Assembly (NCBI GenBank): GCA_035548435.1
Contig: DASZSY010000036.1
Span: 1,262-65,261, forward strand
Reading direction: 5' to 3'
Source: Candidatus Nanoarchaeia archaeon
Lineage (GTDB): Archaea > Nanobdellota > Nanobdellia > Pacearchaeales > GW2011-AR1
Length of the DNA: 64,000 bases
Position numbers and translations under genes: made by a program. Position 1 is the first letter of the stretch. Each line of letters starts with the position of its first letter. Of the stretch, positions 1,453 to 47,441 are shown in pieces. The notes beneath the pieces are model-generated. The model ran no database searches. It saw only the letters and a list, made by a program, of their open reading frames with translations, and had not been told where the DNA came from.

Positions 1453-2811
1453 TTGCATATTATGAAAAAAGGAATGATTGGACTTGAGATACACACGTAT
1501 CTTGTTACGAAACAAAAACTTTTCTGCTCTTGTCTTAATTCAAGAAAGAAAGGAACCAAACCAAATGTCAATATTTGTCCTATTTGCACTGGACAGCCGG
1601 GAAGTAAACCTCTTTCGCCTTCTGAAGAAGCAGTTTTCAAGGCAACACAACTAGGAATGATGCTGGGTTGTAAGATAAATAATAAAATGCACTGGCAAAG
1701 AAAGCACTACAGTTGGCCTGATTTACCTAAAGGATATCAAATTACTTTGTCTGGGAGCGGGGCCATTCCTTTAGGAGTGAATGGAAAATTCCATGGAATA
1801 AGAATTGGAAGTATGCACCTTGAAGAAGATCCTGCCTCTTGGGATCCTGAAACTGGAGCAATAGACTATAATAGATCTGGACTGCCACTAGTCGAGATAG
1901 TTACAGACCCTGATTTTACAACTTCTGAGGAAGTTATTTCTTGGCTTGATAAACTTACAAAACATCTTTCTTACCTAGGAATTGTTGACAGTGATGCAGG
2001 AATAAAGGTAGATGTTAACGTAAATATTCCTGGGAAGACAGAAAGAGTTGAAATAAAAAATATCAACTCTATGGAAAATATTTCTGTTGCCATAGAATCT
2101 GAATTTGAAAGACAGGAAAAAGAAGGAAGCGTAAGAGAAACTAGAAGATTTAATCCAGAGACAGGAAAGACAGAAAGAATGAGATCAAAAGAAGGGGCGG
2201 AAGATTACAGGTTCTTAAGAGACCCAGATTTGCCACTGCTTTATTTGGATTCGCATTTTTTGGAATCTGCTTTGAAATTATTACCTGAAGATCCTGAAAA
2301 AAGAAAGAAAAGATTTATTGATGAGTTCAATATCTCTGAAAAAGAAGCAGACACGGTTACTAAAGATAGATATGTTGCAGATCTTTTCGAAAATGCAACA
2401 AAGGAAGTTGGGCGAGAGCTAGCTTTAACATGGGTTGCTGGAGAGCTTTTGAGATTACTTAATACAAATAACTGTAGACTACAGGATATTGAATTCAAAG
2501 ATGAGCATTTTTTAGCGCTGCTTAAAATGATAAAAAATGGAGACCTTACTCCACTAAAAGGAAAGGAAATATTAAAGCAATTTTATCCTAAGAGTTTTAT
2601 GCCTTCAAACACAGAAAAGAGAATAACTGATAAGAAAGAATTAGAGACAATAATAAAGAAAGTTATTTCTGAAAATCAGAAGGTTGCAGAGGATTACAAA
2701 CAAGGAAACAAAAATTCTCTTAATTTCTTGCTTGGGCAAGTAATGAAAGCCACAAAGAAGATGGCTGATAGTGCCACAAGCATAGATATTCTAACTTCTT
2801 TGTTAAGTTAA
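1453..2811 (+). CDS. gatB: Asp/Glu-tRNA amidotransferase subunit B (GatB)
   Basis: GLEIHTYL...KLFCSC N-terminus, EDYRFLRDPDLP motif, YqeY-like C-terminal tail; about 450 aa. Confidence 0.8.
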   Translation: MHIMKKGMIGLEIHTYLVTKQKLFCSCLNSRKKGTKPNVNICPICTGQPGSKPLSPSEEAVFKATQLGMMLGCKINNKMHWQRKHYSWPDLPKGYQITLSGSGAIPLGVNGKFHGIRIGSMHLEEDPASWDPETGAIDYNRSGLPLVEIVTDPDFTTSEEVISWLDKLTKHLSYLGIVDSDAGIKVDVNVNIPGKTERVEIKNINSMENISVAIESEFERQEKEGSVRETRRFNPETGKTERMRSKEGAEDYRFLRDPDLPLLYLDSHFLESALKLLPEDPEKRKKRFIDEFNISEKEADTVTKDRYVADLFENATKEVGRELALTWVAGELLRLLNTNNCRLQDIEFKDEHFLALLKMIKNGDLTPLKGKEILKQFYPKSFMPSNTEKRITDKKELETIIKKVISENQKVAEDYKQGNKNSLNFLLGQVMKATKKMADSATSIDILTSLLS

Positions 2812-5408: not shown

Positions 5409-6872
5409 GTGGCTGCAAAAGATAAACAAAAAATTGATGAGAAGGGTATTACTGTAAAGAAAAACGATGACTTCTCTGAATGGTACACTCAAGTAGTACA
5501 GAAATGTGAACTTTGTGACCTAAGATATAATGTAAAGGGATTTGTTGTATTTCAACCTTGGTCAGTTTTATCAATGGAAAAGATGTACTCATATTTCCAC
5601 AATGTTTTGCAGAGAAAAGGGCACAAGCCTTACTTTTTCCCAACGGTTATACCTGAAGGAAATTTAAAGAAAGAATCAAGCCATATTGCAGGATTCACTC
5701 CTGAAGTATTTTGGGTTACTGGAGCAGGAGAAGACAAGTTTGAAGAGAAACTTGCTTTAAGACCTACAAGTGAAACTGCATTTTATCAAATGTTTGGAAC
5801 ATGGATAAGAAGTTACAAGGATTTGCCTTTCAAGACATATCAAAGGGCAAATGTTTTCAGATATGAAACTAAAGCTACAAGACCATTTTTACGAAGCAGA
5901 GAATTTCATTGGATTGAAGCACATTGTGCACATGCCACCAAGGAAGATGCAATGAAGCAAGTGCACGAAGATATGGAAACAACTCAAGAAATACTTCACG
6001 ATGTATTTGGATTACCTTTCATATTTTTCAAAAGGCCCCAGTGGGACAAGTTTGCAGGAGCAGAAAATACTTTTGCAGCTGATGTTTTGAACCCTGATGG
6101 AAGAGTAGTACAGCAGCCGTCAACTCATATACTTAAACAAGATTTTGCTAAAGCTTTCAATGTAACATTTACTGATAAGGATTCAGAGCAAAAGCATGTA
6201 TGGATTACTTGTTACGGTCCTGCAATATCAAGAATATTTGCAAGTATAGTTATAGTTCATGGAGATGATAAGGGATTGAGATTCCCTTGGGATATTGCTC
6301 CAGTTCAAATTGCAATAGTTCCAATTGTTGATGATTCTAAGGTAATTAAGAAAGCAGAGGAACTTAAGAAAAAACTTTCTCAAAAATACTCTGTAGAGTT
6401 AGATGTTAGCGAGAAAAGTGCTGGAGAAAAATTCAATTATTGGGAGATGAAGGGAACTCCACTAAGAATAGATATTGGACTCAAAGATTTAGAAAAGAAG
6501 CAGATTACACTATTTAGAAGAGATTTAAACAAAAAAGAATCTGTGTCTGAGAAAGACTTTGAAGAATATGTAGAGAAAATTGCAAAAGAGTTTACTCATA
6601 ATTTGATAAAGGAAGCAGATAAGGTATTTGATAATAGAATTAAAACTGTAAAGTCATTTTCAGATCTTAAGAAAGCAATAGAAGAAGGGAACATTGCACG
6701 TTGTGCATTTTGCTCTGATGAGATGTCTGGCGCTAAATGCGGAGAGAAAGTTGAGAAAGAAGTTGGAGCTACTGTTAGGGGAACCAAGCTTGAGACAGAG
6801 AAAGCTAGCGGAGAATGTGTTGTTTGCGGAAAGAAAGCCAGTACAATAGTGTATATTGCAAGGCAATACTAA
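5409..6872 (+). CDS. proS: prolyl-tRNA synthetase, archaeal/eukaryotic type (GTG start)
   Basis: Class II ProRS motifs; C-terminal zinc-binding domain ending in a conserved terminal Tyr (IARQY). Confidence 0.9.
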   Translation: MAAKDKQKIDEKGITVKKNDDFSEWYTQVVQKCELCDLRYNVKGFVVFQPWSVLSMEKMYSYFHNVLQRKGHKPYFFPTVIPEGNLKKESSHIAGFTPEVFWVTGAGEDKFEEKLALRPTSETAFYQMFGTWIRSYKDLPFKTYQRANVFRYETKATRPFLRSREFHWIEAHCAHATKEDAMKQVHEDMETTQEILHDVFGLPFIFFKRPQWDKFAGAENTFAADVLNPDGRVVQQPSTHILKQDFAKAFNVTFTDKDSEQKHVWITCYGPAISRIFASIVIVHGDDKGLRFPWDIAPVQIAIVPIVDDSKVIKKAEELKKKLSQKYSVELDVSEKSAGEKFNYWEMKGTPLRIDIGLKDLEKKQITLFRRDLNKKESVSEKDFEEYVEKIAKEFTHNLIKEADKVFDNRIKTVKSFSDLKKAIEEGNIARCAFCSDEMSGAKCGEKVEKEVGATVRGTKLETEKASGECVVCGKKASTIVYIARQY

Positions 6873-6877
6873 AAACA

Positions 6878-7408
6878 ATGACTTATACTTTTTCAAGTGA
6901 TTTGGAGGATTGTTCCAGAAAAGATTTCGATATTACTTCTAAAATGTCTGAAGATTTTTTTGGAATGACTACTGACTCTGAGCAGTTTCAGGCATCTGAG
7001 GAGAATAAAGACTTTTTATTTAAACATTTGAAAAATTTTGTTAATATAATCAGATTCAATAAAGAAGTTATAGGATATTCTTTTATTATTCCCTCTAATA
7101 AGAAACTAATGTCTTTGTTTTTGAAAGGTAAAATAACTGAGAGTGAATTATTTGATAGAGTCAAATCAGAAAAAATAAATGAAAATAATTTTGATTGCCT
7201 TTATCTTTGTTCGGCTATTATTAAAGAAGAACATAGAGGCAAGGGCTTGTCTATTGAAGGATTCAAAAAACTAATTGTTAACCTGATAAAAATTAGGGGG
7301 AATGTTAAACCAGACTTATTCTTTTGGGAGTATTCTAAAGAAGGAAGTATTGTCGCTAAAAAAATTTCAGAACATTTCGGTTTTAATTTATTTAAGAGCA
7401 ACAATTAG
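6878..7408 (+). CDS. hypothetical protein, possibly a GNAT-type acetyltransferase
   Basis: An ATG at 6878 avoids overlap with proS; EEHRGKGLSIEGFKKLI resembles GNAT motif A. Confidence 0.4.
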   Translation: MTYTFSSDLEDCSRKDFDITSKMSEDFFGMTTDSEQFQASEENKDFLFKHLKNFVNIIRFNKEVIGYSFIIPSNKKLMSLFLKGKITESELFDRVKSEKINENNFDCLYLCSAIIKEEHRGKGLSIEGFKKLIVNLIKIRGNVKPDLFFWEYSKEGSIVAKKISEHFGFNLFKSNN

Positions 7409-7442
7409 GAACTTTTTAATATGCTTATATTTAGTATCTTAT

Positions 7443-8711
7443 ATGGTAGAAATTGATTTTAAGGCAGGAGATAGAGTTAAATTAAGACTTGTAACAGAAG
7501 AAGTTGAAGGGCAGTATGTTGAAAGTTCTGATGCACAAATTGTTTTGCTTAAACTAGAATCAGGTTATAATATTGGTATAAAAAAGGAAAATATTCTTTC
7601 TTCAAGAAAATTACCTGATAAAGAAGAAAAAATTCAAGAGCCAAGACAACAAAGACAAAGTAAAAATCTCCCCAAAATAGCAATAGTTGTTACAGGAGGA
7701 ACTATAGCTAGTAAAGTTTCTTACAAGACTGGAGGAGTAGAGCCTATAGAGAATCCGCAAGACTTCCTTGATCTTTATCCTGAAGTTGAAGAGATTGCAG
7801 AAATAAAAAAGCTTGAAATGCCATTTAGAATGTTATCTGAAAATATGGACTCTGAACACTGGATAAATATTGCCCAGACCATAAAACCCTTGCTTGAGGA
7901 CAGTGAAATACAAGGAGTAATACTTACACATGGTACGGACACACTGCACTACACTGCTGCAGCTTTGAGTTTCTTTTTAGGAAGACTAAACAAACCTGTT
8001 GTTTTGACTTACAGTCAAAAAAGCATCGATAGGGCGAGTAGCGACGCTAAGTTAAACTTAATTTCAGCTGTGAAAATGGCCTTGAGTGATTGTGCAGAAG
8101 TAATGCTTGTTGGACACGGTACAACAAATGATGATTTTTGTTATGCACTACGTGGAACAAAAGTAAAAAAAATGCACAGTTCAAAGAGAGCAGCATTTTT
8201 ACCTGTAAATACAGAGCCACTAGCGAAGATTTCCAAAGATAAAATAGAATTCTTGCAAAAATATAATCCTCGAAGTGATAAAAAAGTTGAAGTTGACACT
8301 TCTTTTACAGATAAAGTAGCTTTGCTCAAGTTTTATCCAGGACAAGATCCTAGCATTCTTGATTATTATGCCTTAAGTTACAAGGGAATTGTAATTGAAG
8401 GAACTGGACTTGGACATGTTGCTGCTTCTGGAGCAAATAAGAGTTGGCTGGCTGCACTAAAGAAGCACATAAGAAATGGACTTGTTGTTTGTATGACAAG
8501 TCAAACAGTTTTTGGAAGAGTTGATCCTTATATTTATTCAGCAGGAAGAGAAATACTTGATGCAGGAGTGATTTATCTTGAAGATATGCTTTCAGAAACT
8601 GCTTTTGTTAAATTAGGGTTTGTACTAGGCCACGCAGGTTGGAAAGTTAAGGCAAAGGAAAAGATGCTACAGAATATGGCCTACGAGCTTAATCAAGTTC
8701 ATTCTAGTTAG
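7443..8711 (+). CDS. gatD: Glu-tRNA(Gln) amidotransferase subunit D (GatD), asparaginase-like
   Basis: IAIVVTGGTIASK, LTHGTDT and EGTGLGH asparaginase-family motifs; about 420 aa from the in-frame ATG at 7443. Confidence 0.85.
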   Translation: MVEIDFKAGDRVKLRLVTEEVEGQYVESSDAQIVLLKLESGYNIGIKKENILSSRKLPDKEEKIQEPRQQRQSKNLPKIAIVVTGGTIASKVSYKTGGVEPIENPQDFLDLYPEVEEIAEIKKLEMPFRMLSENMDSEHWINIAQTIKPLLEDSEIQGVILTHGTDTLHYTAAALSFFLGRLNKPVVLTYSQKSIDRASSDAKLNLISAVKMALSDCAEVMLVGHGTTNDDFCYALRGTKVKKMHSSKRAAFLPVNTEPLAKISKDKIEFLQKYNPRSDKKVEVDTSFTDKVALLKFYPGQDPSILDYYALSYKGIVIEGTGLGHVAASGANKSWLAALKKHIRNGLVVCMTSQTVFGRVDPYIYSAGREILDAGVIYLEDMLSETAFVKLGFVLGHAGWKVKAKEKMLQNMAYELNQVHSS

Positions 8712-8715
8712 TATA

Positions 8716-8734
8716 GTAACTTTTAAGGAGTTAC
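8716..8734 (+). promoter_or_regulatory. palindromic operator-like site GTAACT-N7-AGTTAC, immediately upstream of TATA (TTTAAATA at 8745-8752) of the 8774 gene
   Basis: GTAACTTTTAAGGAGTTAC, a perfect 6-bp inverted repeat; a near-identical site precedes the next gene. Confidence 0.5.
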
Positions 8735-8773
8735 AAAACAAATATTTAAATAGTGGACAAAATATTCTTACAT

Positions 8774-9514
8774 ATGAGATTTAGTCATCTTGACGCAGCA
8801 ATTCCTGAAGGAAGAGAAGAAGATTTCTTTTCATTGTTTGGTAGACTACAAGAACCAACAAAATCTAATTTTGAGTTAGTTTTAGATCTTGGCGCTTATA
8901 TGAATGGTACACCTTTCAATGATAGATATGCTGTTACTGGGAGCTATGCTATTTTGTCTCATTTGATGAAACTTCACTCTCCAGAAATTGCTTCAACTTG
9001 GAAAGGTTTCAGTAATCCTACAATTGTTGGAAATGGACAAGTTCTTGGAGCACTACGCGCAGGATATCATACTAAGGGTGGACCTCAAAACAGAACTGAT
9101 ATGGTTCCTGTTTTTGATATGCTATTAAAGCTTGAAGGAAAAGATGAAAGATTAACTTTTGTTTACAATGAAGTTAGAAAGAATCCTGGAAGTGTTGAAA
9201 CAAACGAACACTTCGGAGTTCCATTGAAGGTAAATTCTCCTGAATCTTTACTGGAGCATAGACTTGGAAGACCTATGACAAGCCAGGGAAACATAGGAGA
9301 CACTTTGACTTTAGTTCATATAATGGAACAAAGAGGGTATTCTCCCGACAGCGTTGCAGAATATGCTATTGCGAATAAACAAGCAGATGAGCTTGCAAAG
9401 AGAATTAAGACAGGATATGACAAATTTGGAAGAGATAGATTTGGAGTATTTCCAAGCGATAAGTTTGTAGCCACATTACTAAAAAGACTTCACAAAGTAC
9501 GCCCAGTAGCATAA
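8774..9514 (+). CDS. hypothetical protein, first gene of the atypical cassette
   Basis: Start placed at the ATG 22 nt downstream of the TATA box, because the upstream GTG at 8753 would overlap the TATA; GC and codon usage (CGT, CCG, GGT-rich) deviate from neighbours; no recognisable domain. Confidence 0.45.
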   Translation: MRFSHLDAAIPEGREEDFFSLFGRLQEPTKSNFELVLDLGAYMNGTPFNDRYAVTGSYAILSHLMKLHSPEIASTWKGFSNPTIVGNGQVLGALRAGYHTKGGPQNRTDMVPVFDMLLKLEGKDERLTFVYNEVRKNPGSVETNEHFGVPLKVNSPESLLEHRLGRPMTSQGNIGDTLTLVHIMEQRGYSPDSVAEYAIANKQADELAKRIKTGYDKFGRDRFGVFPSDKFVATLLKRLHKVRPVA

Positions 9515-9533
9515 TTCTAAAGGGTTATTAGTG

Positions 9534-9552
9534 TAACTATGCAGGAGTTACA
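9534..9552 (+). promoter_or_regulatory. palindromic operator-like site GTAACT-N7-AGTTAC upstream of TATA (TTTAAAAG at about 9562-9570) of the Fic-like gene
   Basis: GTAACTATGCAGGAGTTAC followed by CAAA, same architecture and spacing as 8716-8734. Confidence 0.5.
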
Positions 9553-9591
9553 AATAGGAAGGTTTAAAAGGTTATAAGTTTTCAGTGAAAT

Positions 9592-10593
9592 ATGCACATA
9601 ATTGAAGAAAAACTACTACTTGATATAGAATCTGCAAAATCTAGATTGGACAGAAAAAGGTTAGATGATTTTGTTAGGGAGATGTTTAAATGCTTGTCTA
9701 GAGAAACTATGGAAAATGCTACTATTCAAGATGCAGATAATGCTAGAAGAAAGTCAGAAGTTTTCGCAAATTTTGAGATTGCATGGGATTATGGTACCCG
9801 AAACTTCAAAGAACCGGTAGATTTTGCTTATTTAGGCGATGTTGCTGGAAGAGTTGAACCAGGTTTATGTGCTCCAGGACAACACTATGCAAGTTTTCGT
9901 AATGGTTCTGCAACTTGTTTTGCAGGTTATTTACCTCCTGCTGATGAATCTAGAGTCAGAGAACATCTAGCTAGATCTCTTGATGTTTTGGAAAGTCAAG
10001 ATTGGCATCCTATTGAAAAAGCAGTTTTCTTGAATTTTCACATAACAAGAATTCAACCATTCCAAAATGGAAATAAAAGAACTGCAAATATAGTAACAAA
10101 TGCTACTTTAAAAAATAATGATTTTTTCCCAATTTCTATAAGTCAAAAGAACAAATCTCGTTATCAAGGATACTTGGCAGGTGCACTTAAAGACTTTGAA
10201 AACATGGGCGCAACTGTAGACGATCCTCTCCAACCTTATAAGTTTCCGGGCTTTGGTCAAAGACAATTTTACGATTTTCTTGCTAGAATAGAACTGTCTG
10301 AATTAAAGTGCGCAGAGGATAAATTATCAGGTTTATCTCATTACACTTTATCTTTCAATAATGCTCCAATAAATACTTTGTATGGAGTAAAGCATCATGT
10401 TAGAAATTGGCTTCAAGGACATAACATGTTACATCAGGTTAGATTAGATGTTGCTAGAAAGGAAATTACCGTTGCTGGAGATATTCCTCTTCATTCTTTA
10501 GAAATTGCAGTGGGAAAAATAAAAGGAATTGGTAAATATGAGATTAAGCCGTATAAACCTGCGAATGGTTCTTCAGGTCCCTTTAGTGTATAA
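9592..10593 (+). CDS. Fic/Doc-fold protein with a degenerate active-site motif (QPFQNGNKRTAN instead of HPFx[DE]GNGRxxR)
   Basis: The motif region is encoded at about 10038-10090; the NGNKR core resembles Doc-type HxFx(D/N)(A/G)NKR, but the canonical catalytic His position is Gln. Confidence 0.55.
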   Translation: MHIIEEKLLLDIESAKSRLDRKRLDDFVREMFKCLSRETMENATIQDADNARRKSEVFANFEIAWDYGTRNFKEPVDFAYLGDVAGRVEPGLCAPGQHYASFRNGSATCFAGYLPPADESRVREHLARSLDVLESQDWHPIEKAVFLNFHITRIQPFQNGNKRTANIVTNATLKNNDFFPISISQKNKSRYQGYLAGALKDFENMGATVDDPLQPYKFPGFGQRQFYDFLARIELSELKCAEDKLSGLSHYTLSFNNAPINTLYGVKHHVRNWLQGHNMLHQVRLDVARKEITVAGDIPLHSLEIAVGKIKGIGKYEIKPYKPANGSSGPFSV

Positions 10594-10594
10594 A

Positions 10595-11197
10595 ATGACA
10601 ACTAAAAAATGTAAGGGGCACAATTTTCTCGATGGGTATTATTCTACACAGAGGGGCTTAGCAGATTATTCAAGAGTTCATCAATTGGATTTTATTAGAC
10701 TTATAGAAGAAGCTAAATTGCAAGAAGGCACAGTAGTTGATTTGGGATGTGGTAATGCAAATTTTTTGGCTGATTTAAAGAAACTATTCCCAAATATGAA
10801 AGTTTATGGAGTTGACAAAGTACAGTATGAATCCAGACTTTCCGAGGATGAATTAATACAAGCAGATATCTCTAGAGGCGTTAAATGTCTAGATAGTGAA
10901 ATTGCAGACCTCGTTGTTAGCACTACTTTAGTGCAATGGTTGCCTGCAGACTCGGTGGACCCTTTTTATGTTGAAGTAAATCGTTTAATGAAAAAAGAAG
11001 GAAGAGGAATAGTTTTTCCTTTAGCTTCTAAAGAAGTATCTGAAGAAAGGGGAAGGTATTTTGTTAACGGATTAGAGTTTGAGAGACCAGTAAATATTAG
11101 AAAGATTAAGTTACCTGAAACTTTAGATGGTAAACTAGCTTCAGCATATCAGGTTTTATTTGGAGATTTTAGCGGCTTTCTAGACCTACATAATTAG
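10595..11197 (+). CDS. class I SAM-dependent methyltransferase
   Basis: VVDLGCGNANFLADL glycine-rich motif I; start at the ATG 1 nt after the Fic-like stop. Confidence 0.6.
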   Translation: MTTKKCKGHNFLDGYYSTQRGLADYSRVHQLDFIRLIEEAKLQEGTVVDLGCGNANFLADLKKLFPNMKVYGVDKVQYESRLSEDELIQADISRGVKCLDSEIADLVVSTTLVQWLPADSVDPFYVEVNRLMKKEGRGIVFPLASKEVSEERGRYFVNGLEFERPVNIRKIKLPETLDGKLASAYQVLFGDFSGFLDLHN

Positions 11198-11444
11198 CTC
11201 TATTGAAAATATCGTTTATTTTTTCTTCACTGAAGTTGTAGGGATTTAATTTCAATAGGTGTTTTATTTCAGAATCACTAGGTTTTAATTCAGGTTCCAT
11301 CCAATAAAATTCTCTCATATCTATTCCTTTTCTTTGAAATCCTTCTAATAGTGCACTTATTTCAGAATCATTCTCCCTATGTTTTAAGTAAAATGTTATA
11401 AAATCTAAGGTAAACTGTTCTGTTGGTTTTCTTAACAGAGACAT
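11169..11444 (-). CDS. hypothetical small protein (91 aa), convergent with and slightly overlapping the methyltransferase 3' end
   Basis: ORF only; no recognisable motif. Confidence 0.3.
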   Translation of the reverse strand: MSLLRKPTEQFTLDFITFYLKHRENDSEISALLEGFQRKGIDMREFYWMEPELKPSDSEIKHLLKLNPYNFSEEKINDIFNRANYVGLESR

Positions 11445-11534
11445 AAGGTTATATGGTGCCCAACTATATATTCTTTGTTGTGTTTTATTTTAAATTACCG
11501 CAACCTTTAATACCTCTAGCTTGTATTTTTTTGT

Positions 11535-12983
11535 ATGGACTATAGTAAGATAGGACTTAAAGCTGGAATTGAAATACATCAGCAGTTGGAAACAAGTGAA
11601 AAGCTTTTTTCTCATGCTCCTAGTTACTTAAGAAATGAAAAAGCAGATTATATTGTGCAAAGAAAACTACACAAAGTAGCTGGAGAACAGGGACAGGTTG
11701 ACGCAGCTGTTAAACATGAGGCCGAGCAAGACAGAGAATTTCATTATGAAGGATATAATGACACAGTTTCTCTTGTGGAACTAGACGAAGAGCCACCATA
11801 TATGGTAAATCAAGAAGCTTTGGAAGAATGTTTGAAAGTTGCACTGCTTTTGAATTGTGAAATTTATCAAAACACGCAAATAATGAGAAAGACGGTTATT
11901 GACGGAAGCAACACTTCTGGCTTTCAGAGAACTGTTCTAATAGGCCACGATGGATACGTTGAAACAAGTTTTGGTAAGGTAAGAATAGATACTGTTGTTT
12001 TAGAAGAAGACAGCGCTAGAATAATAAGCAAAGATGAAAGAAAGGCAGTTTACAGACTTGATAGACTTGGAATTCCATTAATTGAAATTGCTACTGCTCC
12101 TGATATGAACACTCCAGAGCAAATAAAAGAAACTGCATTAAAGATAGGAGAAATACTAAGAGCCTGTAATGTTAAAAGAGGACTTGGAACAATAAGACAG
12201 GACGTTAACGTTTCTATAAAAGGACATGACAGAGTAGAAATAAAGGGATTTCAAGATCCTAAGATGATGATTGAAACTGTAAATAAGGAAATCTTAAGAC
12301 AACAAAAAGATATTTCCGAAGGAAAAGTTAAAGGAGAAGTGCGTGGAGCATTGGAAACAGGAGAAACTGAATTTTTAAGACCTATGCCTGGAAAAGCAAG
12401 AATGTATCCTGAGACAGATTTACCTTTACTTTATGTTTCTCTTGATTTAATAAATAAATTAAAGAAAAATCTTCCTAAATTAAAGCAGGAAATAAAAGTT
12501 GAATTAAAGAAGAAAGGTTTGAATGATGAAATGATTAAACTTGTTTTGGAAGATGGAGTTGATGAGTTTGAGACATTACTTAACGTATATGACAAAGATG
12601 CTAATCTTGTTGCTAAAATGATAACTTTATGGAGACAAGAATTTTCAAGCAAAACAAAGAAGAATTTGGATGAAGTAAAACAAATACTAAATGAAAAAAT
12701 ACTGGAAAAAATACTTGAAAACTTAGCTACTGGAAAAATAAGCGATGGAGATGTTAAGACAATAATGCTTAAGGTCTTGGAAGGAAAGAATGTAGAAGAT
12801 GCTTTGAAAGTTGAAAAAAGCGATGATAATACACTTGAACATGGAATAAGAGAAATTGTTAAAGAAAAACCTGGACTAAGAGCAAATGCTTATATGGGGC
12901 TTGTAATTGCAAAGTTTGGAGCAAGCGTTGATAAAAGAAAAGCAATGGAAATCTTAAACAAAGTTGTGGGGGACGGGAAATGA
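11535..12983 (+). CDS. gatE: Glu-tRNA(Gln) amidotransferase subunit E (GatE), compact form
   Basis: GIEIHQQL N-terminus and RPMPGKARMYPETDLP motif (GatE-specific versus GatB EDYRY); only 482 aa, so it lacks most of the canonical GatE insertion. Confidence 0.7.
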   Translation: MDYSKIGLKAGIEIHQQLETSEKLFSHAPSYLRNEKADYIVQRKLHKVAGEQGQVDAAVKHEAEQDREFHYEGYNDTVSLVELDEEPPYMVNQEALEECLKVALLLNCEIYQNTQIMRKTVIDGSNTSGFQRTVLIGHDGYVETSFGKVRIDTVVLEEDSARIISKDERKAVYRLDRLGIPLIEIATAPDMNTPEQIKETALKIGEILRACNVKRGLGTIRQDVNVSIKGHDRVEIKGFQDPKMMIETVNKEILRQQKDISEGKVKGEVRGALETGETEFLRPMPGKARMYPETDLPLLYVSLDLINKLKKNLPKLKQEIKVELKKKGLNDEMIKLVLEDGVDEFETLLNVYDKDANLVAKMITLWRQEFSSKTKKNLDEVKQILNEKILEKILENLATGKISDGDVKTIMLKVLEGKNVEDALKVEKSDDNTLEHGIREIVKEKPGLRANAYMGLVIAKFGASVDKRKAMEILNKVVGDGK

Positions 12984-13234
12984 ACAAAACTTTAGTGGCA
13001 ATTGGAATGCTTGCACTTTTAGCATTTGGAGCAGGATTTTATGCTAAGGGAATTACGGGCAACGTTATTTTTGGGCAAAATGAGCAGAGTTATACTAAAG
13101 CCATATGCCATGAAAGCCAATGTTTAGATGTTTATGTTCAGTGTAATAATGGAAATCCTATAATTACTCCTATAACTCCATATACTCAAGTTAATACCAC
13201 TAAATTTAATATCACAAATGAGATAAAATGTTAG
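12980..13234 (+). CDS. small secreted protein (signal peptide plus about 60 aa)
   Basis: MNKTLVAIGMLALLAFGAGFYAKG signal-like N-terminus; start overlaps the gatE stop. Confidence 0.4.
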   Translation: MNKTLVAIGMLALLAFGAGFYAKGITGNVIFGQNEQSYTKAICHESQCLDVYVQCNNGNPIITPITPYTQVNTTKFNITNEIKC

Positions 13235-13242
13235 GATAGGAT

Positions 13243-13304
13243 AAATGAAAACTATTTTCATTTATGAAAATCATTTTCAATAATGTTTAAATACTTGAAA
13301 GTAT
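13243..13304 (+). promoter_or_regulatory. array of three palindromes flanking the TATA box (TTTAAATA at 13286-13293) of the 13320 gene
   Basis: AAATGAAAA-CTA-TTTTCATTT at 13243-13263; TGAAAAT-C-ATTTTCA at 13265-13279; ATACTT-GA-AAGTAT at 13291-13304; repeated TGAAAA/TTTTCA half-sites. Confidence 0.5.
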
Positions 13305-13319
13305 TGGATTTTATACTCT

Positions 13320-13919
13320 ATGGGCCCTAATTGGTGTTCTGCAGCGGATGCGAAAATATTTTATTATAGGTGCAAGTATGAAGAAGATTATCTAGGAGTT
13401 GAATGGGTACATGGAGCAGATACTTTACCATTTGTTTTAAATCCTGAAGAAGTTCTTTCTAAAGTAGATTATGATTTTCATAATATAAGTAGAGAAGACT
13501 TGGCAGTTAGAGCTTCTTTTATTTTAATGCCTGATAGTGTTAGACTGAGAGTAAGAGAAGGACACGCTCTTCTTCCTCCTCCAGAAAATTTATCTGAAGA
13601 AGAGAAAGTTAGGCTTGCAAGTAGAGAACTTCTAAGATATAATATTGAGCAAAGAGATTGGATGCTACGTGGAAAGAAGTTTCTTGCTGAAAGAGAGCAT
13701 CACGATCCTGATGTAAATGAGTTTGTTAGAGATTACTTTGCAAATGGTAGCCCTGTTTTCTATAAGATAAGAGATGTAATGTTGCATCCTGAAAGATATG
13801 TTAGAAGAGATGTTCTTCCACTATCTGAAGTGTTGCATGGCGGAATGGGTATTCAAGAAAGACTTTATGGGTCTCCAAGATTGCCTGATTTAGAAGCTCA
13901 GCCACCCGTCGCAGCATAG
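13320..13919 (+). CDS. hypothetical protein (199 aa, Arg/Pro-rich), apparently tightly regulated
   Basis: ORF with TATA 27 nt upstream and operator-like palindromes; no recognisable domain. Confidence 0.5.
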   Translation: MGPNWCSAADAKIFYYRCKYEEDYLGVEWVHGADTLPFVLNPEEVLSKVDYDFHNISREDLAVRASFILMPDSVRLRVREGHALLPPPENLSEEEKVRLASRELLRYNIEQRDWMLRGKKFLAEREHHDPDVNEFVRDYFANGSPVFYKIRDVMLHPERYVRRDVLPLSEVLHGGMGIQERLYGSPRLPDLEAQPPVAA

Positions 13920-18767: not shown

Positions 18768-19847
18768 ATGGTACTAGATTTTGCAAAAGAAGCACTGAAA
18801 AACGTTGAGACACACAGTATCAACTTCGACGAGCTTAGAGCAGGAAAGGCTAACATCAAAGTATTTGGTTGCGGAGGATCGGGCTGTAACACAATTACAT
18901 GGCTTTTCAACAAAGGAATTAACGGCGCATCTATCTACGGAATAAACACTGACGCATTGCACTTGAGTATTACCAAAGCTGATGAGAAGATCCTCATAGG
19001 TAAGGAGCTTACAAGAGGGCTAGGTTGCGGTGGATATCCAACAAAGGGTAGAGAAGCTGCTAAGGAATCACTATCTGAGCTAAAGAGGGCTGCTACTGGT
19101 GCTGATATGGCTTTCGTACTTGCAGGAATGGGTGGAGGAACCGGAACTGGAGCTGCACCTGTTGTTGCACAACTTGCTAAGGAAAGCGGAGCAGTAGTCA
19201 TTGGTGTTGTTACAATGCCATTCGACTGCGAGAAAGCTAGACTTGACAAGGCTGAGTTCGGACTACAAGAGCTATCTGATGTTGTTGACACAGTTATTGT
19301 TATCGATAACAACAGACTAGTTGACATCGCTGGAAACTTGCCAATGGAGCAAGCATTCGCGGTAGCAAACGAGCTAGTTTCAACAATGATTAAAGGAATT
19401 GTAGAAACAATTACTTTGCCTTCATTGATTAACTTGGACTATGCTGACGTTAGCGCTATCATGAAGAACGGAGATGTTGCAGTTATTGGAGTTGGAGAAG
19501 CTGACACAACTGACAGAGTTGAATCTGCAGTTAAGCAAGCTTTGACACACCCATTACTGGATGTAGACTACAAGGGAGCTACAGGCGCATTGATTCACAT
19601 CACATGTGGACCAGACTTCAAGCTTGAGGAATTCTCAGGAGTTGGAGAGCTTGTAACTGAAAACATAAGCCAAGACGCACAAGTAATCATCGGAGCAAGA
19701 GTTAACAAGGACTTCGCAAACAAGGTAAGAGTTATTACTATCATGACTGGAGTTAAGTCTCCATACATTATGGGTAAGAAGTCTCACCAAGAAGAAGTTC
19801 AACACGCTCGCTCTGAGATGTCTGACTTAGGAATTCAGATCTTCTGA
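18768..19847 (+). CDS. ftsZ: cell division GTPase FtsZ (tubulin superfamily)
   Basis: GGGTGTGAAPVVA tubulin signature; strong ribosome-binding site AAAGGAGG 7 nt upstream. Confidence 0.9.
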   Translation: MVLDFAKEALKNVETHSINFDELRAGKANIKVFGCGGSGCNTITWLFNKGINGASIYGINTDALHLSITKADEKILIGKELTRGLGCGGYPTKGREAAKESLSELKRAATGADMAFVLAGMGGGTGTGAAPVVAQLAKESGAVVIGVVTMPFDCEKARLDKAEFGLQELSDVVDTVIVIDNNRLVDIAGNLPMEQAFAVANELVSTMIKGIVETITLPSLINLDYADVSAIMKNGDVAVIGVGEADTTDRVESAVKQALTHPLLDVDYKGATGALIHITCGPDFKLEEFSGVGELVTENISQDAQVIIGARVNKDFANKVRVITIMTGVKSPYIMGKKSHQEEVQHARSEMSDLGIQIF

Positions 19848-47347: not shown

Positions 47348-47441
47348 TGGCCCCGACGGGATTTGAACCCGCGACACCTGGATTTCGCCAACCATGAAGG
47401 TTTAAGAGTCCAGTACTCTGACCGGGCTGAGCTACGAGGCC
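47348..47441 (-). tRNA. tRNA-Lys (anticodon CTT) with a roughly 19-nt intron at the canonical 37/38 position
   Basis: Reverse complement folds: acceptor GGCCUCG/CGGGGCC, D-stem GCUC/GAGU, anticodon stem CUGGA/UCCAG with the loop interrupted by an intron (AACCUUCAUGGUUGGCGAA), T-stem GCGGG/CCCGU; ends GGGGCCA. Confidence 0.7.

What the first reader, a model, noticed from the sequence alone, without database searches (positions are those of the whole stretch)
8712..11444. Compositionally atypical cassette: unknown protein + divergent Fic/Doc-fold protein + SAM methyltransferase (+ small convergent ORF)
Genes at 8774-9514, 9592-10593 and 10595-11197 form a tight co-directional block between gatD and gatE. 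Their GC content is visibly higher (about 38-42% versus about 30% in neighbours) and their codon usage differs (CGT, CCG, GGT frequent), suggesting horizontal acquisition. The middle protein has a Fic/Doc fold signature, and the methyltransferase start abuts its stop. The first two genes carry near-identical palindromic operators (see the next finding), implying they are a co-regulated functional unit. Fic/Doc enzymes are toxin-like protein modifiers (AMPylation or phosphorylation). A Fic-MTase-unknown trio of this kind is not a described archaeal module as far as I know, so it is a candidate novel toxin/defence or protein-modification system.
Basis: partly seen in the sequence, partly recalled or inferred. 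Interest (0 to 1): 0.75.

Follow-up and report, generated by a model that had tools for sequence, protein, structure and literature searches.

The report
Dead nucleotidyltransferase and histidine-less Fic, co-regulated
The block between gatD and gatE is not a foreign toxin cassette but a native, variable slot in a DPANN archaeon that holds an inactivated MenT-like nucleotidyltransferase and a Fic-fold protein lacking its catalytic histidine, two little-known protein families that share one conserved promoter operator in many related genomes.

Summary
The gene block, the Fic fold, the abutting methyltransferase and the paired palindromes are real. The claimed high GC and odd codon usage are not: GC is 0.35-0.37 against a window mean of 0.344, and codon-deviation ranks are 49, 31 and 19 of 59.

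Gene 2 is a FICD-like Fic protein from a small DPANN family. In that family the catalytic His is always Gln (RIQPFxNGNKR), so canonical AMPylation or Doc-type phosphorylation is unlikely.

The trio is not conserved. Close relatives carry an unrelated 315-aa gene in the Fic slot, and about 25 Fic homologs lie elsewhere without gene 1 or the methyltransferase.

The operator GTAACT-N7-AGTTAC plus TATA box recognisably precedes most homologs of both families: 13 near-exact sites in 314 kb against 1.1 expected. In one genome the Fic protein's C-terminal domain is a separate small gene upstream of an active nucleotidyltransferase.

Best reading: a shared regulon of translation-linked (pseudo)enzymes. 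The mechanism is inferred.

The parts
7440..8711 (+). gatD (left flank). The listed ORF starts at 7302, but the likely true start is ATG 7440.
   Evidence: Pfam GatD_N, Asparaginase and Asparaginase_C. 91% identical to the L009 ortholog.
8716..8734 (.). Operator 1: palindrome GTAACTTTTAAGGAGTTAC. It is followed by the TATA box TTTAAATA (8745-8752), about 26 nt before the ATG at 8774, which implies a leaderless promoter.
   Evidence: The same element recognisably precedes most gene-1 homologs in other genomes.
8774..9514 (+). Gene 1: a 246-aa, catalytically inactivated MenT/AbiEii-like nucleotidyltransferase-fold protein.
8936..9022 (+). Decayed active-site segment of gene 1. It reads TGSYAILSHLM...WKGFSNPTIVGN, where the family consensus is FGGYAVLSHLM...WRGSxDIDMAG.
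   Evidence: Alignments A3 and A4.
9533..9551 (.). Operator 2: palindrome GTAACTATGCAGGAGTTAC. It is followed by the TATA box TTTAAAAG (9563-9570), about 26 nt before the ATG at 9592.
   Evidence: A recognisable (often drifted) copy precedes most Fic-like homologs. It also precedes the non-homologous 315-aa gene in L009 and L040.
9592..10593 (+). Gene 2: a 333-aa FICD-like Fic-fold protein with a non-canonical motif and a C-terminal ferredoxin-like domain.
9727..9741 (+). Family-invariant QDxDN motif (Q46-N50), immediately N-terminal to the first core helix. This is the position where class II Fic proteins carry their inhibitory helix.
   Evidence: Invariant in A2 and in 10 further loci. The positional equivalence to the inhibitory helix is inferred from the model's secondary structure.
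10048..10089 (+). Fic active-site loop RIQPFQNGNKRTAN. Q155 replaces the catalytic His, N159 replaces Asp/Glu, K162 replaces Gly (as in Doc), and N166 replaces Arg.
   Evidence: Read directly from the sequence. Invariant across the family. Residue mapping onto FICD H363, D367, G370 and R374 comes from the HMM alignment.
10330..10557 (+). C-terminal beta-alpha-beta-beta-alpha-beta domain of gene 2 (residues 247-322).
10595..11197 (+). Gene 3: a 200-aa class I SAM-dependent methyltransferase, translationally coupled to gene 2 through the junction TAAAATG.
   Evidence: Pfam Methyltransf_11, _25 and _31 above their cutoffs. Only 3 homologs in 5.8 billion proteins. The same stop-start junction is used behind the unrelated 315-aa gene in L009 and L040. 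dN/dS 0.23.
11169..11444 (-). Small convergent ORF of 91 aa, function unknown. It overlaps the methyltransferase 3' end by 29 nt.
   Evidence: A positional homolog exists in L009 (41% identity over 73 aa, E 3e-22). No family hits. It evolves fast, with dN/dS 0.64.
11535..12983 (+). gatE (right flank).
   Evidence: Pfam GatB_N, E 5e-54. Gene-1 homologs sit directly 5' of gatE in L009-L014, L016, L017 and L021.

Best explanation
The block is a lineage-specific elaboration of a native, operator-controlled variable slot inside the gatD-gatE locus of a Woesearchaeota-type DPANN archaeon. It is not an imported toxin cassette.

SHOWN:
(a) Gene 1 belongs to an un-annotated DPANN family of MenT/AbiEii-like nucleotidyltransferases. 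That family ancestrally sits between gatD and gatE. The window copy has lost its whole catalytic set but is still under purifying selection, so it is a pseudoenzyme.
(b) Gene 2 belongs to a small DPANN family of FICD-like Fic-fold proteins. The catalytic His is invariably Gln, within an otherwise strictly conserved loop (RIQPFxNGNKR). A ferredoxin-like domain is fused at the C-terminus.
(c) Recognisable copies of the operator GTAACT-N7-AGTTAC plus BRE/TATA module precede most members of both families across genomes, centred about 50 nt before a leaderless start. This holds whether or not the two genes are neighbours.
(d) The middle ORF of the slot has been exchanged precisely between the promoter and the methyltransferase start in close relatives.
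(e) In one genome the Fic protein's C-terminal domain is a separate small gene between the operator and an active nucleotidyltransferase.

INFERRED:
- The two families form one regulon under a still-unidentified dimeric transcription factor.
- Active nucleotidyltransferases of this family act, like MenT, on RNA or tRNA 3' ends. This fits their gatDE and aminoacyl-tRNA-synthetase neighbourhood.
- The Fic-like protein, through its C-terminal domain, is the non-catalytic partner or regulator of the nucleotidyltransferase.
- In this genome the pair works by binding rather than catalysis.
- The methyltransferase and the small ORF are lineage-specific add-ons of unknown substrate.
For: COMPOSITION AND CODON USAGE are ordinary.

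GENE 1:
- The family has 114 representatives. 61 of 63 aligned keep GG...RG[S/T]xDxD...K...D...K...D. The window lineage lost five of these positions.
- These positions match MenT residues shown to be essential: D80, K189 and D211 (PMC7450476) and the phospho-acceptor S78/T39 two residues before the pol-beta Asp (PMC11375011).
- dN/dS is 0.14.
- Gene-1 homologs sit directly 5' of gatE in the window-like L009 and in L010-L014, L016, L017 and L021. L015 has an insert. gatE identity across these loci is 52-91%.

GENE 2:
- Fic fold.
- The His-to-Gln, Asp-to-Asn and Arg-to-Asn changes are invariant in 21 + 10 homologs.

OPERATOR:
- With at most 1 mismatch there are 13 sites in 314 kb, against 1.1 expected.
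- 10 of the 13 lie 30-70 nt upstream of a Fic-like, gene-1 or C-terminal-domain gene start.
- The other 3 lie in promoters of slot or neighbouring genes.

SLOT AND LINKS BETWEEN THE FAMILIES:
- The ORF swap has sharp boundaries.
- A stand-alone C-terminal-domain gene lies upstream of an active nucleotidyltransferase in L015.
- A genuine AbiEii nucleotidyltransferase lies directly downstream of a Fic-like gene in L005.
- In L001 the Fic-like gene alone occupies the gatD-gatE slot.
Against: - There are no experimental data.
- No transcription factor has been identified.
- Co-occurrence of the two families within the same genomes could not be tested, because only about 10-kb loci were retrievable.
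- L001 has the Fic-like gene but no gene 1 in the slot, so the Fic-like protein does not strictly need a neighbouring nucleotidyltransferase.
- The C-terminal-domain link to the nucleotidyltransferase rests on one locus (L015). The Fic-AbiEii adjacency rests on one lineage; its relative L041 has a kinase-like gene there instead.
- The tRNA target is inferred only from fold analogy and neighbourhood. DPANN genomes are rich in translation genes, and gatD-gatE synteny could preserve a passenger gene by inertia.
- The operator degenerates in some Fic-like loci (L008, L023, L026).
- A Gln-containing Fic loop might still support some unknown chemistry.
Confidence: 0.55

Rival explanations
1. The block is a horizontally acquired three-gene toxin, defence or protein-modification cassette. 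The Fic/Doc enzyme is the effector, gene 1 is its partner, and the methyltransferase is an accessory.
For: Tight co-directional arrangement with a stop-start junction. Fic fold. Weak PADLOC similarities to SoFic, PDC-S04 and mad2. The genes evolve faster than their flanks. Recombinase genes lie near some Fic-like homologs.
Against: Composition and codon usage are typical. The trio is found only in this genome, and close relatives carry an unrelated gene in place of Fic. About 25 Fic homologs lack both partners. Gene 1 is vertically inherited at gatE. The catalytic His is absent from the whole Fic family. Gene 1 is catalytically dead. No antitoxin-like or mobility gene lies in the block.
Confidence: 0.06
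2. The block is a chromosomally fixed, partly decayed MenAT/AbiE-like toxin-antitoxin or abortive-infection pair. The nucleotidyltransferase is the toxin. The Fic-like protein, or its free C-terminal domain, is the antitoxin and autorepressor that binds the palindrome. In the window lineage the toxin has been inactivated and the remnants are drifting or being repurposed.
For: MenT-like fold and motifs, including the phospho-acceptor Ser/Thr. A small C-terminal-domain gene sits in the classic upstream antitoxin position in L015. Fic-like followed by AbiEii in L005. A palindromic operator is typical of autoregulated toxin-antitoxin operons. The genes evolve fast. DUF1814 toxins are not always linked to antitoxins (PMC7450476).
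Against: Most nucleotidyltransferase homologs have no adjacent partner, with gatD directly upstream and gatE directly downstream. Position is inherited vertically across 52-91% gatE identity, which is unlike mobile toxin-antitoxin loci. The dead copy is under purifying selection rather than decaying (dN/dS 0.14). The C-terminal domain shows no recognisable DNA-binding fold. No PADLOC hit for gene 1.
Confidence: 0.2
3. The genes are functionally unrelated passengers. The shared operator is simply the site of a global or stress regulator, or a promoter cassette spread by recombination, in these archaea. Juxtaposition in this window is an accident of a recombination-prone slot.
For: The same element precedes unrelated genes: a GNAT acetyltransferase in L007, a 134-aa gene in L006, and the 315-aa gene in L009 and L040. 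Neighbours of Fic-like genes are highly variable. The middle ORF was swapped exactly at the promoter boundary.
Against: The element is rare: 2 sites in the 64-kb window and 13 in 314 kb. It is overwhelmingly tied to these two families. The independent C-terminal-domain-plus-nucleotidyltransferase operon in L015 and the Fic-AbiEii pair in L005 argue for a link beyond regulation.
Confidence: 0.19

Closest known systems
FICD/HYPE and other class II Fic AMPylases (for example BT_2513, SoFic)
   Different: The catalytic His is Gln, the metal-binding Asp/Glu is Asn, and the last Arg is Asn/Ser/Gly in every member. There is no TPR or wHTH domain; instead there is a ferredoxin-like C-terminal domain. 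The acidic motif is QDxDN, not [S/T]xxxE[G/N].
Doc (phage P1 Phd-Doc) kinase toxin
   Same: Fido superfamily. Lys replaces the second Gly of the motif (GNKR), as in HPFx[D/E]GN[G/K]R (PMC2686095).
   Different: No catalytic His. It is 333 aa with a flap and extra domains, against about 125 aa for Doc. There is no Phd-like antitoxin. The TIGR01550 score is 14 against a cutoff of 38.7.
Bartonella BepC and Bep8-type FIC domains with non-canonical motifs
   Same: Precedent for Fic domains that keep the PFxxGN loop and the fold but deviate at catalytic positions. [quoted passage not shown]
   Different: Those are secreted bacterial effectors that still retain the His in several cases. Here the His is lost across an entire archaeal chromosomal family.
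MenT1, MenT3 (TglT), MenT4 and AbiEii: DUF1814 nucleotidyltransferase toxins
   Different: Not recognised by Pfam PF08843 (1 of 63 at E 6e-4). Usually there is no adjacent antitoxin. The gene is fixed between gatD and gatE in DPANN archaea. The window copy lacks every catalytic residue except the last Asp.
Antibiotic nucleotidyltransferases ANT(2'') and LnuA, and TM1012
   Different: Only 10-16% identity. Gene 1 has an added C-terminal helical lobe like MenT. Nothing in its context suggests antibiotic resistance.

Membership tests
Fic/Fido superfamily (PF02661) | Pfam HMM match above the gathering score | tested here: met
   37.1 bits against a cutoff of 24, residues 113-172.
Fic/Fido superfamily (PF02661) | Fic core fold: helical bundle, flap hairpin, and an active-site loop between helices 4 and 5 | tested here: met
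Catalytically competent Fic AMPylase or Doc kinase | Signature HPFx[D/E]GN[G/K]RxxR with the catalytic His | tested here: not met
   The sequence is QPFQNGNKRTAN. Q155 aligns to FICD H363, N159 to D367 and N166 to R374. These changes are invariant in 31 homologs.
Class II Fic (auto-inhibited) | Inhibitory helix motif [S/T]xxxE[G/N] N-terminal to the core | tested here: inconclusive
   An invariant QDxDN motif lies at residues 46-50, just before the first core helix. It does not fit the consensus, and no coordinates were available to check its geometry.
Phd-Doc or FicTA toxin-antitoxin module | A small cognate antitoxin gene adjacent, and a match to the Doc-specific model | tested here: not met
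   The upstream gene is a 246-aa nucleotidyltransferase-fold protein and the downstream gene is a methyltransferase. TIGR01550 scores 14.2 against a cutoff of 38.65. No conserved neighbour appears across about 25 loci.
DUF1814 / AbiEii / MenT nucleotidyltransferases | Nucleotidyltransferase fold with a MenT-like C-terminal lobe | tested here: met
DUF1814 / AbiEii / MenT nucleotidyltransferases | Catalytic motifs: GG, [S/T]xDxD (pol-beta), third Asp, C-terminal Lys and Asp | tested here: not met
   Not met for the window protein, which has S57, F79, N81, T83, F114, T128 and R163 and keeps only D176. Met for the family as a whole, where 61 of 63 keep all positions.
DUF1814 / AbiEii / MenT nucleotidyltransferases | Match to Pfam PF08843 | tested here: not met
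   No hit for the window protein. 1 of 63 family members hits at E 6e-4.
DUF1814 / AbiEii / MenT nucleotidyltransferases | Upstream cognate antitoxin (AbiEi or MenA) | tested here: inconclusive
   In most loci gatD is directly upstream. Only L015 has a small upstream gene, and that gene is the Fic C-terminal-domain homolog.
DUF1814 / AbiEii / MenT nucleotidyltransferases | Nucleotide addition to tRNA 3' ends, and toxicity | not testable with these tools
   This needs biochemical and expression assays.
Class I SAM-dependent methyltransferase | Rossmann methyltransferase HMM match and a glycine-rich SAM loop | tested here: met
   Methyltransf_11 34.2 bits (cutoff 21.2), plus _25 and _31 above their cutoffs. 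The motif VVDLGCGNANF is visible in the translation.
Horizontally acquired genomic island | Atypical base composition or codon usage, and mobility genes | tested here: not met
   GC and GC3 lie within 1 sd of the window mean. Codon-deviation ranks are 49, 31 and 19 of 59. There is no integrase or transposase in 8.7-11.5 kb.

The most novel reading that the evidence does not exclude
The histidine-less Fic-like protein may itself be the operator-binding regulator of the regulon. In this reading a pseudo-Fic nucleotide- or phosphoprotein-sensing domain is fused to a dimerising ferredoxin-like C-terminal domain that recognises GTAACT-N7-AGTTAC. That protein controls its own gene and a chromosomal MenT-like tRNA nucleotidyltransferase embedded in the gatDE operon. 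Genome-reduced DPANN archaea would thereby have a domesticated toxin-antitoxin-derived switch that tunes tRNA charging and translation.
Probability: 0.12. Interest if true: 0.8.

Novelty: new variant of a known kind. Interest (0 to 1): 0.5.

Why it matters
Neither family is annotated or described as far as I could find. Pfam, NCBIfam and PADLOC are silent on gene 1, and four full-text literature searches returned nothing specific.

If the reading holds, it defines three things:
1. A Fic-fold family that has given up the catalytic histidine across an entire clade while keeping the rest of the active-site loop strictly conserved. It is therefore either a natural pseudoenzyme or an enzyme with new chemistry.
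2. A MenT-like nucleotidyltransferase family fixed inside the operon for tRNA-dependent Gln-tRNA synthesis in DPANN archaea. This points to a housekeeping or regulatory use of an enzyme type so far known as a bacterial toxin.
3. A sharply defined archaeal operator and regulon that can be tested directly. Very little is known about transcriptional regulation in DPANN archaea.

It is also a useful caution. A Fic domain hit next to a methyltransferase looked like a defence cassette, but comparative context shows otherwise.

Tried and rejected
- HIGH-GC OR FOREIGN CODON USAGE: rejected on per-gene GC, GC3 and codon chi-square.
- GENE 1 RELATED TO THE ~250-aa GENES NEXT TO Fic HOMOLOGS IN L003 AND L005: BLASTP and hhalign show no relationship. 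The L005 neighbour is a separate, genuine AbiEii.
- L009 MIDDLE GENE AS A DIVERGENT Fic: rejected. It carries a PRTase-like motif but has no Pfam or PDB hit.
- L041 166-aa + 87-aa ORFS AS A SPLIT AbiEii: rejected. The 166-aa ORF is APH/kinase-like.
- L006 134-aa AND 87-aa ORFS AS C-TERMINAL-DOMAIN HOMOLOGS: rejected.
- PDB SEQUENCE PROFILE SEARCH FOR GENE 1: no hit.
- Pfam, NCBIfam AND PADLOC FOR GENE 1, THE SMALL ORF AND ORF 13320-13919: no hits.
- Rfam AND tRNA SCANS OF 8000-13500: nothing.
- BROAD GENE-1 ALIGNMENT FOR LOCUS RETRIEVAL: the first attempt failed for lack of a conserved stretch. A narrower alignment worked.


Full report
**1. What is in the sequence**

- The window is a 34% GC DPANN archaeal segment. 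The identical proteins are recorded from a "Candidatus Nanoarchaeia archaeon" MAG.
- Between gatD (7440-8711; Asparaginase + GatD_N) and gatE (11535-12983; GatB_N) lie three co-directional ORFs at 8774-9514, 9592-10593 and 10595-11197. A convergent 91-aa ORF lies at 11169-11444.
- The methyltransferase ATG follows the stop codon of gene 2 by one base.
- Upstream of genes 1 and 2 lie near-identical 31-nt elements. Each contains the palindrome GTAACT-N7-AGTTAC (8716-8734 and 9533-9551).
- Each palindrome is followed about 10 nt later by a TATA box. The TATA box is centred about 26 nt before the ATG, which is the geometry of a leaderless archaeal promoter.

**2. The composition claim fails**

- Per-gene GC is 0.369, 0.347 and 0.351, against 0.344 ± 0.027 for 59 window genes.
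- GC3 is 0.217, 0.189 and 0.251, against 0.238 ± 0.034.
- A leave-one-out synonymous-codon chi-square ranks the three genes 49th, 31st and 19th of 59. CGT and CCG occur three times each.
- The real outlier nearby is ftsZ (18768-19847). There is no signal of horizontal acquisition.

**3. Gene 2 is a Fic-fold protein without the Fic catalytic residues**

- Pfam Fic is matched above threshold.
- A family profile hits human FICD at E 4e-17.
- The family is small. A word-indexed search of 5.8 billion proteins returned 21 sequences, and a metagenome scan added 10 more loci. All are 320-338 aa.
- In every member but one (no motif match was found in L029) the signature reads RIQPFxNGNKRTA. The HMM alignment maps its residues onto FICD as follows:
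  - the Gln onto catalytic H363;
  - the Asn onto metal-binding D367;
  - the Lys onto G370, as in Doc;
  - a variable Asn/Ser/Gly onto R374.
- An N-terminal QDxDN motif is also invariant. It lies where class II Fic proteins carry their inhibitory helix. That positional equivalence is inferred from the model's secondary structure only.
- Residues 247-322 form a beta-alpha-beta-beta-alpha-beta domain. It has only generic ferredoxin-like structural neighbours.
- His is described as essential for Fic/Doc catalysis (PMC4454073). Non-canonical Fic domains such as BepC have no detected activity and act by binding (PMC8401265).
- Canonical AMPylation or Doc-type phosphorylation is therefore unlikely. 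The strict conservation of the rest of the loop still argues for a functional ligand-binding site.

**4. Gene 1 is a dead member of a MenT-like nucleotidyltransferase family**

- No family library recognises it.
- An exhaustive HMM search found 114 cluster representatives, 34 of them at E below 1e-30.
- In an alignment of 63 sequences, 61 keep FGGYAVL...WRG[S/T]xDxD...K...D...K...D.
- The window protein and its nearest kin instead have S57, F79, N81, T83, F114, T128 and R163. They retain only D176.
- The lost positions correspond to residues shown to be essential in MenT3: D80, K189 and D211 (PMC7450476). They also correspond to the auto-phosphorylated Ser/Thr two residues before the pol-beta Asp (PMC11375011).
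- The dead copy is nevertheless under purifying selection. dN/dS is 0.14 against its 79%-identical ortholog, compared with 0.05-0.06 for gatD and gatE. dS is about 1, so these values are approximate.

**5. Neighbourhoods: the trio is not a module, but gene 1 belongs to the gatDE locus**

- Gene-1 homologs at 31-79% identity lie directly 5' of gatE in L009-L014, L016, L017 and L021. L015 has a 1.7-kb insert. Several of these loci read gatD-gene1-gatE.
- These genomes have gatE only 52-91% identical to the window. All are Woesearchaeota, Pacearchaeota or Nanoarchaeota MAGs.
- Only the two most distant homologs (L019, L020) lie elsewhere.
- Fic-like homologs have no conserved partner. Their contexts are:
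  - alone between gatD and gatE (L001);
  - after rpl13-rps9 (L002, L005, L006, L041);
  - next to aIF5B (L003, L007);
  - next to rps10/EF1A (L008).
- None of about 25 such loci has gene 1 or the methyltransferase nearby.
- The methyltransferase has only three homologs.
- In the two closest relatives (L009 with gatDE 91% identical, and L040) the middle gene is an unrelated 315-aa protein.
- DNA homology with the window runs through the end of gene 1 and the operator/TATA module. It stops at the middle gene's start and resumes exactly at the TAAAATG stop-start junction with the methyltransferase.
- The region is therefore a variable slot in a conserved backbone, and the Fic gene is one interchangeable occupant.

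**6. The operator links the two families across genomes**

- Recognisable copies of tGTAACT-N7-AGTTAC-a-N2-TAGAAAGGTTTAAAta precede most Fic-like homologs and most gene-1 homologs examined.
- This includes L011, where the site lies inside a mis-called N-terminal extension.
- In 314 kb of non-redundant DNA there are 13 sites with at most 1 mismatch, against 1.1 in shuffles.
  - Ten lie 30-70 nt upstream of a Fic-like, gene-1 or C-terminal-domain gene start.
  - The other three precede the L009 315-aa slot gene, a small gene heading the Fic-like gene in L006, and a GNAT acetyltransferase in L007.
- With at most 2 mismatches, 15 of 32 target promoters carry a site inside a 40-nt window.
The two families look like one regulon of an unidentified dimeric regulator whose site is centred at about -50.

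**7. Independent hints of a functional link**

- In L015 the operator precedes an 81-aa ORF lying immediately upstream of an active nucleotidyltransferase.
- That ORF is homologous over its full length to the Fic protein's C-terminal domain (hhalign probability 92.7%, E 4e-7).
- It is the only stand-alone hit among 2,468 ORFs.
- In L005 a genuine AbiEii (PF08843 above cutoff) directly follows the Fic-like gene.
- These are single-lineage observations. They fit a MenAT/AbiE-like logic in which a small partner gene sits upstream of the nucleotidyltransferase.

**8. Interpretation**

- SHOWN:
  - native composition;
  - a dead nucleotidyltransferase under selection;
  - a histidine-less Fic family;
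  - a non-conserved trio;
  - a conserved gatE linkage of gene 1;
  - a shared operator;
  - a precise ORF swap;
  - homology between the Fic C-terminal domain and the small ORF.
- INFERRED:
  - the two families form one regulon;
  - active family members act on RNA or tRNA 3' ends, by analogy with MenT and from the gatDE and aminoacyl-tRNA-synthetase context;
  - the Fic-like protein or its C-terminal domain is the partner or regulator of the nucleotidyltransferase;
  - in this genome both proteins act non-catalytically.
- RIVALS:
  - a decayed toxin-antitoxin or abortive-infection pair (about 0.2);
  - unrelated passengers under a global regulator (about 0.2);
  - the original foreign toxin cassette (about 0.06).

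**9. Novelty and score**

- Both proteins are new variants of known kinds: the Fic fold and the DUF1814-like nucleotidyltransferase.
- The trio as a "system" is not real.
- The histidine-less Fic family, the nucleotidyltransferase resident in the gatDE locus, and the conserved DPANN operator appear undescribed. All three are directly testable.
- Interest is 0.5.

Noticed in passing
window 18768-19847 (+): This is the only clear compositional outlier in the first 24 kb (GC 0.435, GC3 0.367, top codon-usage deviation of 59 genes). It is ftsZ (Tubulin + FtsZ_C), so the deviation probably reflects a highly expressed core gene rather than horizontal transfer.
   Followed up: yes
window 13320-13919 (+): A 199-aa ORF with no Pfam, NCBIfam or PADLOC hit. 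It is conserved downstream of gatE in L009 (82% identity) and present in L001 (38% identity). It is another lineage-restricted unknown in the same syntenic block.
   Followed up: partly
L015 3669-6440: This is the richest version of the slot. In order it holds the operator, an 81-aa homolog of the Fic C-terminal domain, an active nucleotidyltransferase, a second nucleotidyltransferase-like 315-aa ORF (FVGGVATQ...STDNVDIAFG, no Pfam hit), an EndoIII-like HhH-GPD gene, and gatE.
   Followed up: partly
L003/L004 5115-5897 (-); L008 4146-4898 (+); L041 5956-6456 (+): Protein kinases recur next to Fic-like homologs. There are two genuine Pkinase genes, only 27% identical to each other, and an APH/kinase-like 166-aa ORF that abuts the Fic stop codon. 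No homolog exists in the 64-kb window.
   Followed up: partly
L006 4654-4917; L041 6456-6719: An 87-aa protein family (28% identity, E 8e-8) lies upstream of the Fic-like gene in one genome and downstream of it in another. Its function is unknown.
   Followed up: no
L009 6803-7750; L040 1718-2665: The 315-aa gene that replaces Fic in close relatives carries a PRPP-binding-like motif (VMGIDEVVSGQS). It has no Pfam or PDB sequence hit. It uses the same operator and the same TAAAATG junction to the methyltransferase.
   Followed up: partly
L002 7001-8364; L005 7760-8299 and 10286-11119; L041 6724-7254 and 9410-10243: Serine-recombinase fragments and a tyrosine integrase lie just downstream of the Fic-like locus that follows rpl13-rps9. 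This suggests that site is an integration hot spot in those lineages.
   Followed up: no
window 11535-12983 (+) and 1453-2811 (+): gatE is only 482 aa and hits GatB_N but not the YqeY-type tail domain. A separate gatB in the same window has GatB_N + GatB_Yqey. The genome therefore appears to encode both the GatDE and the GatCAB-type B subunits.
   Followed up: partly
window 47348-47441 (-): ARAGORN reports a 94-nt tRNA-like gene with a 4-nt anticodon call (ttaa). It may be an intron-containing or otherwise atypical tRNA.
   Followed up: no
window 6815-7408 / 7302-8711: The mechanical gatD ORF starts at 7302 and overlaps the preceding 197-aa ORF, which has a weak acetyltransferase-like hit. The GatD_N domain and the orthologs indicate that the true gatD start is ATG 7440.
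   Followed up: partly
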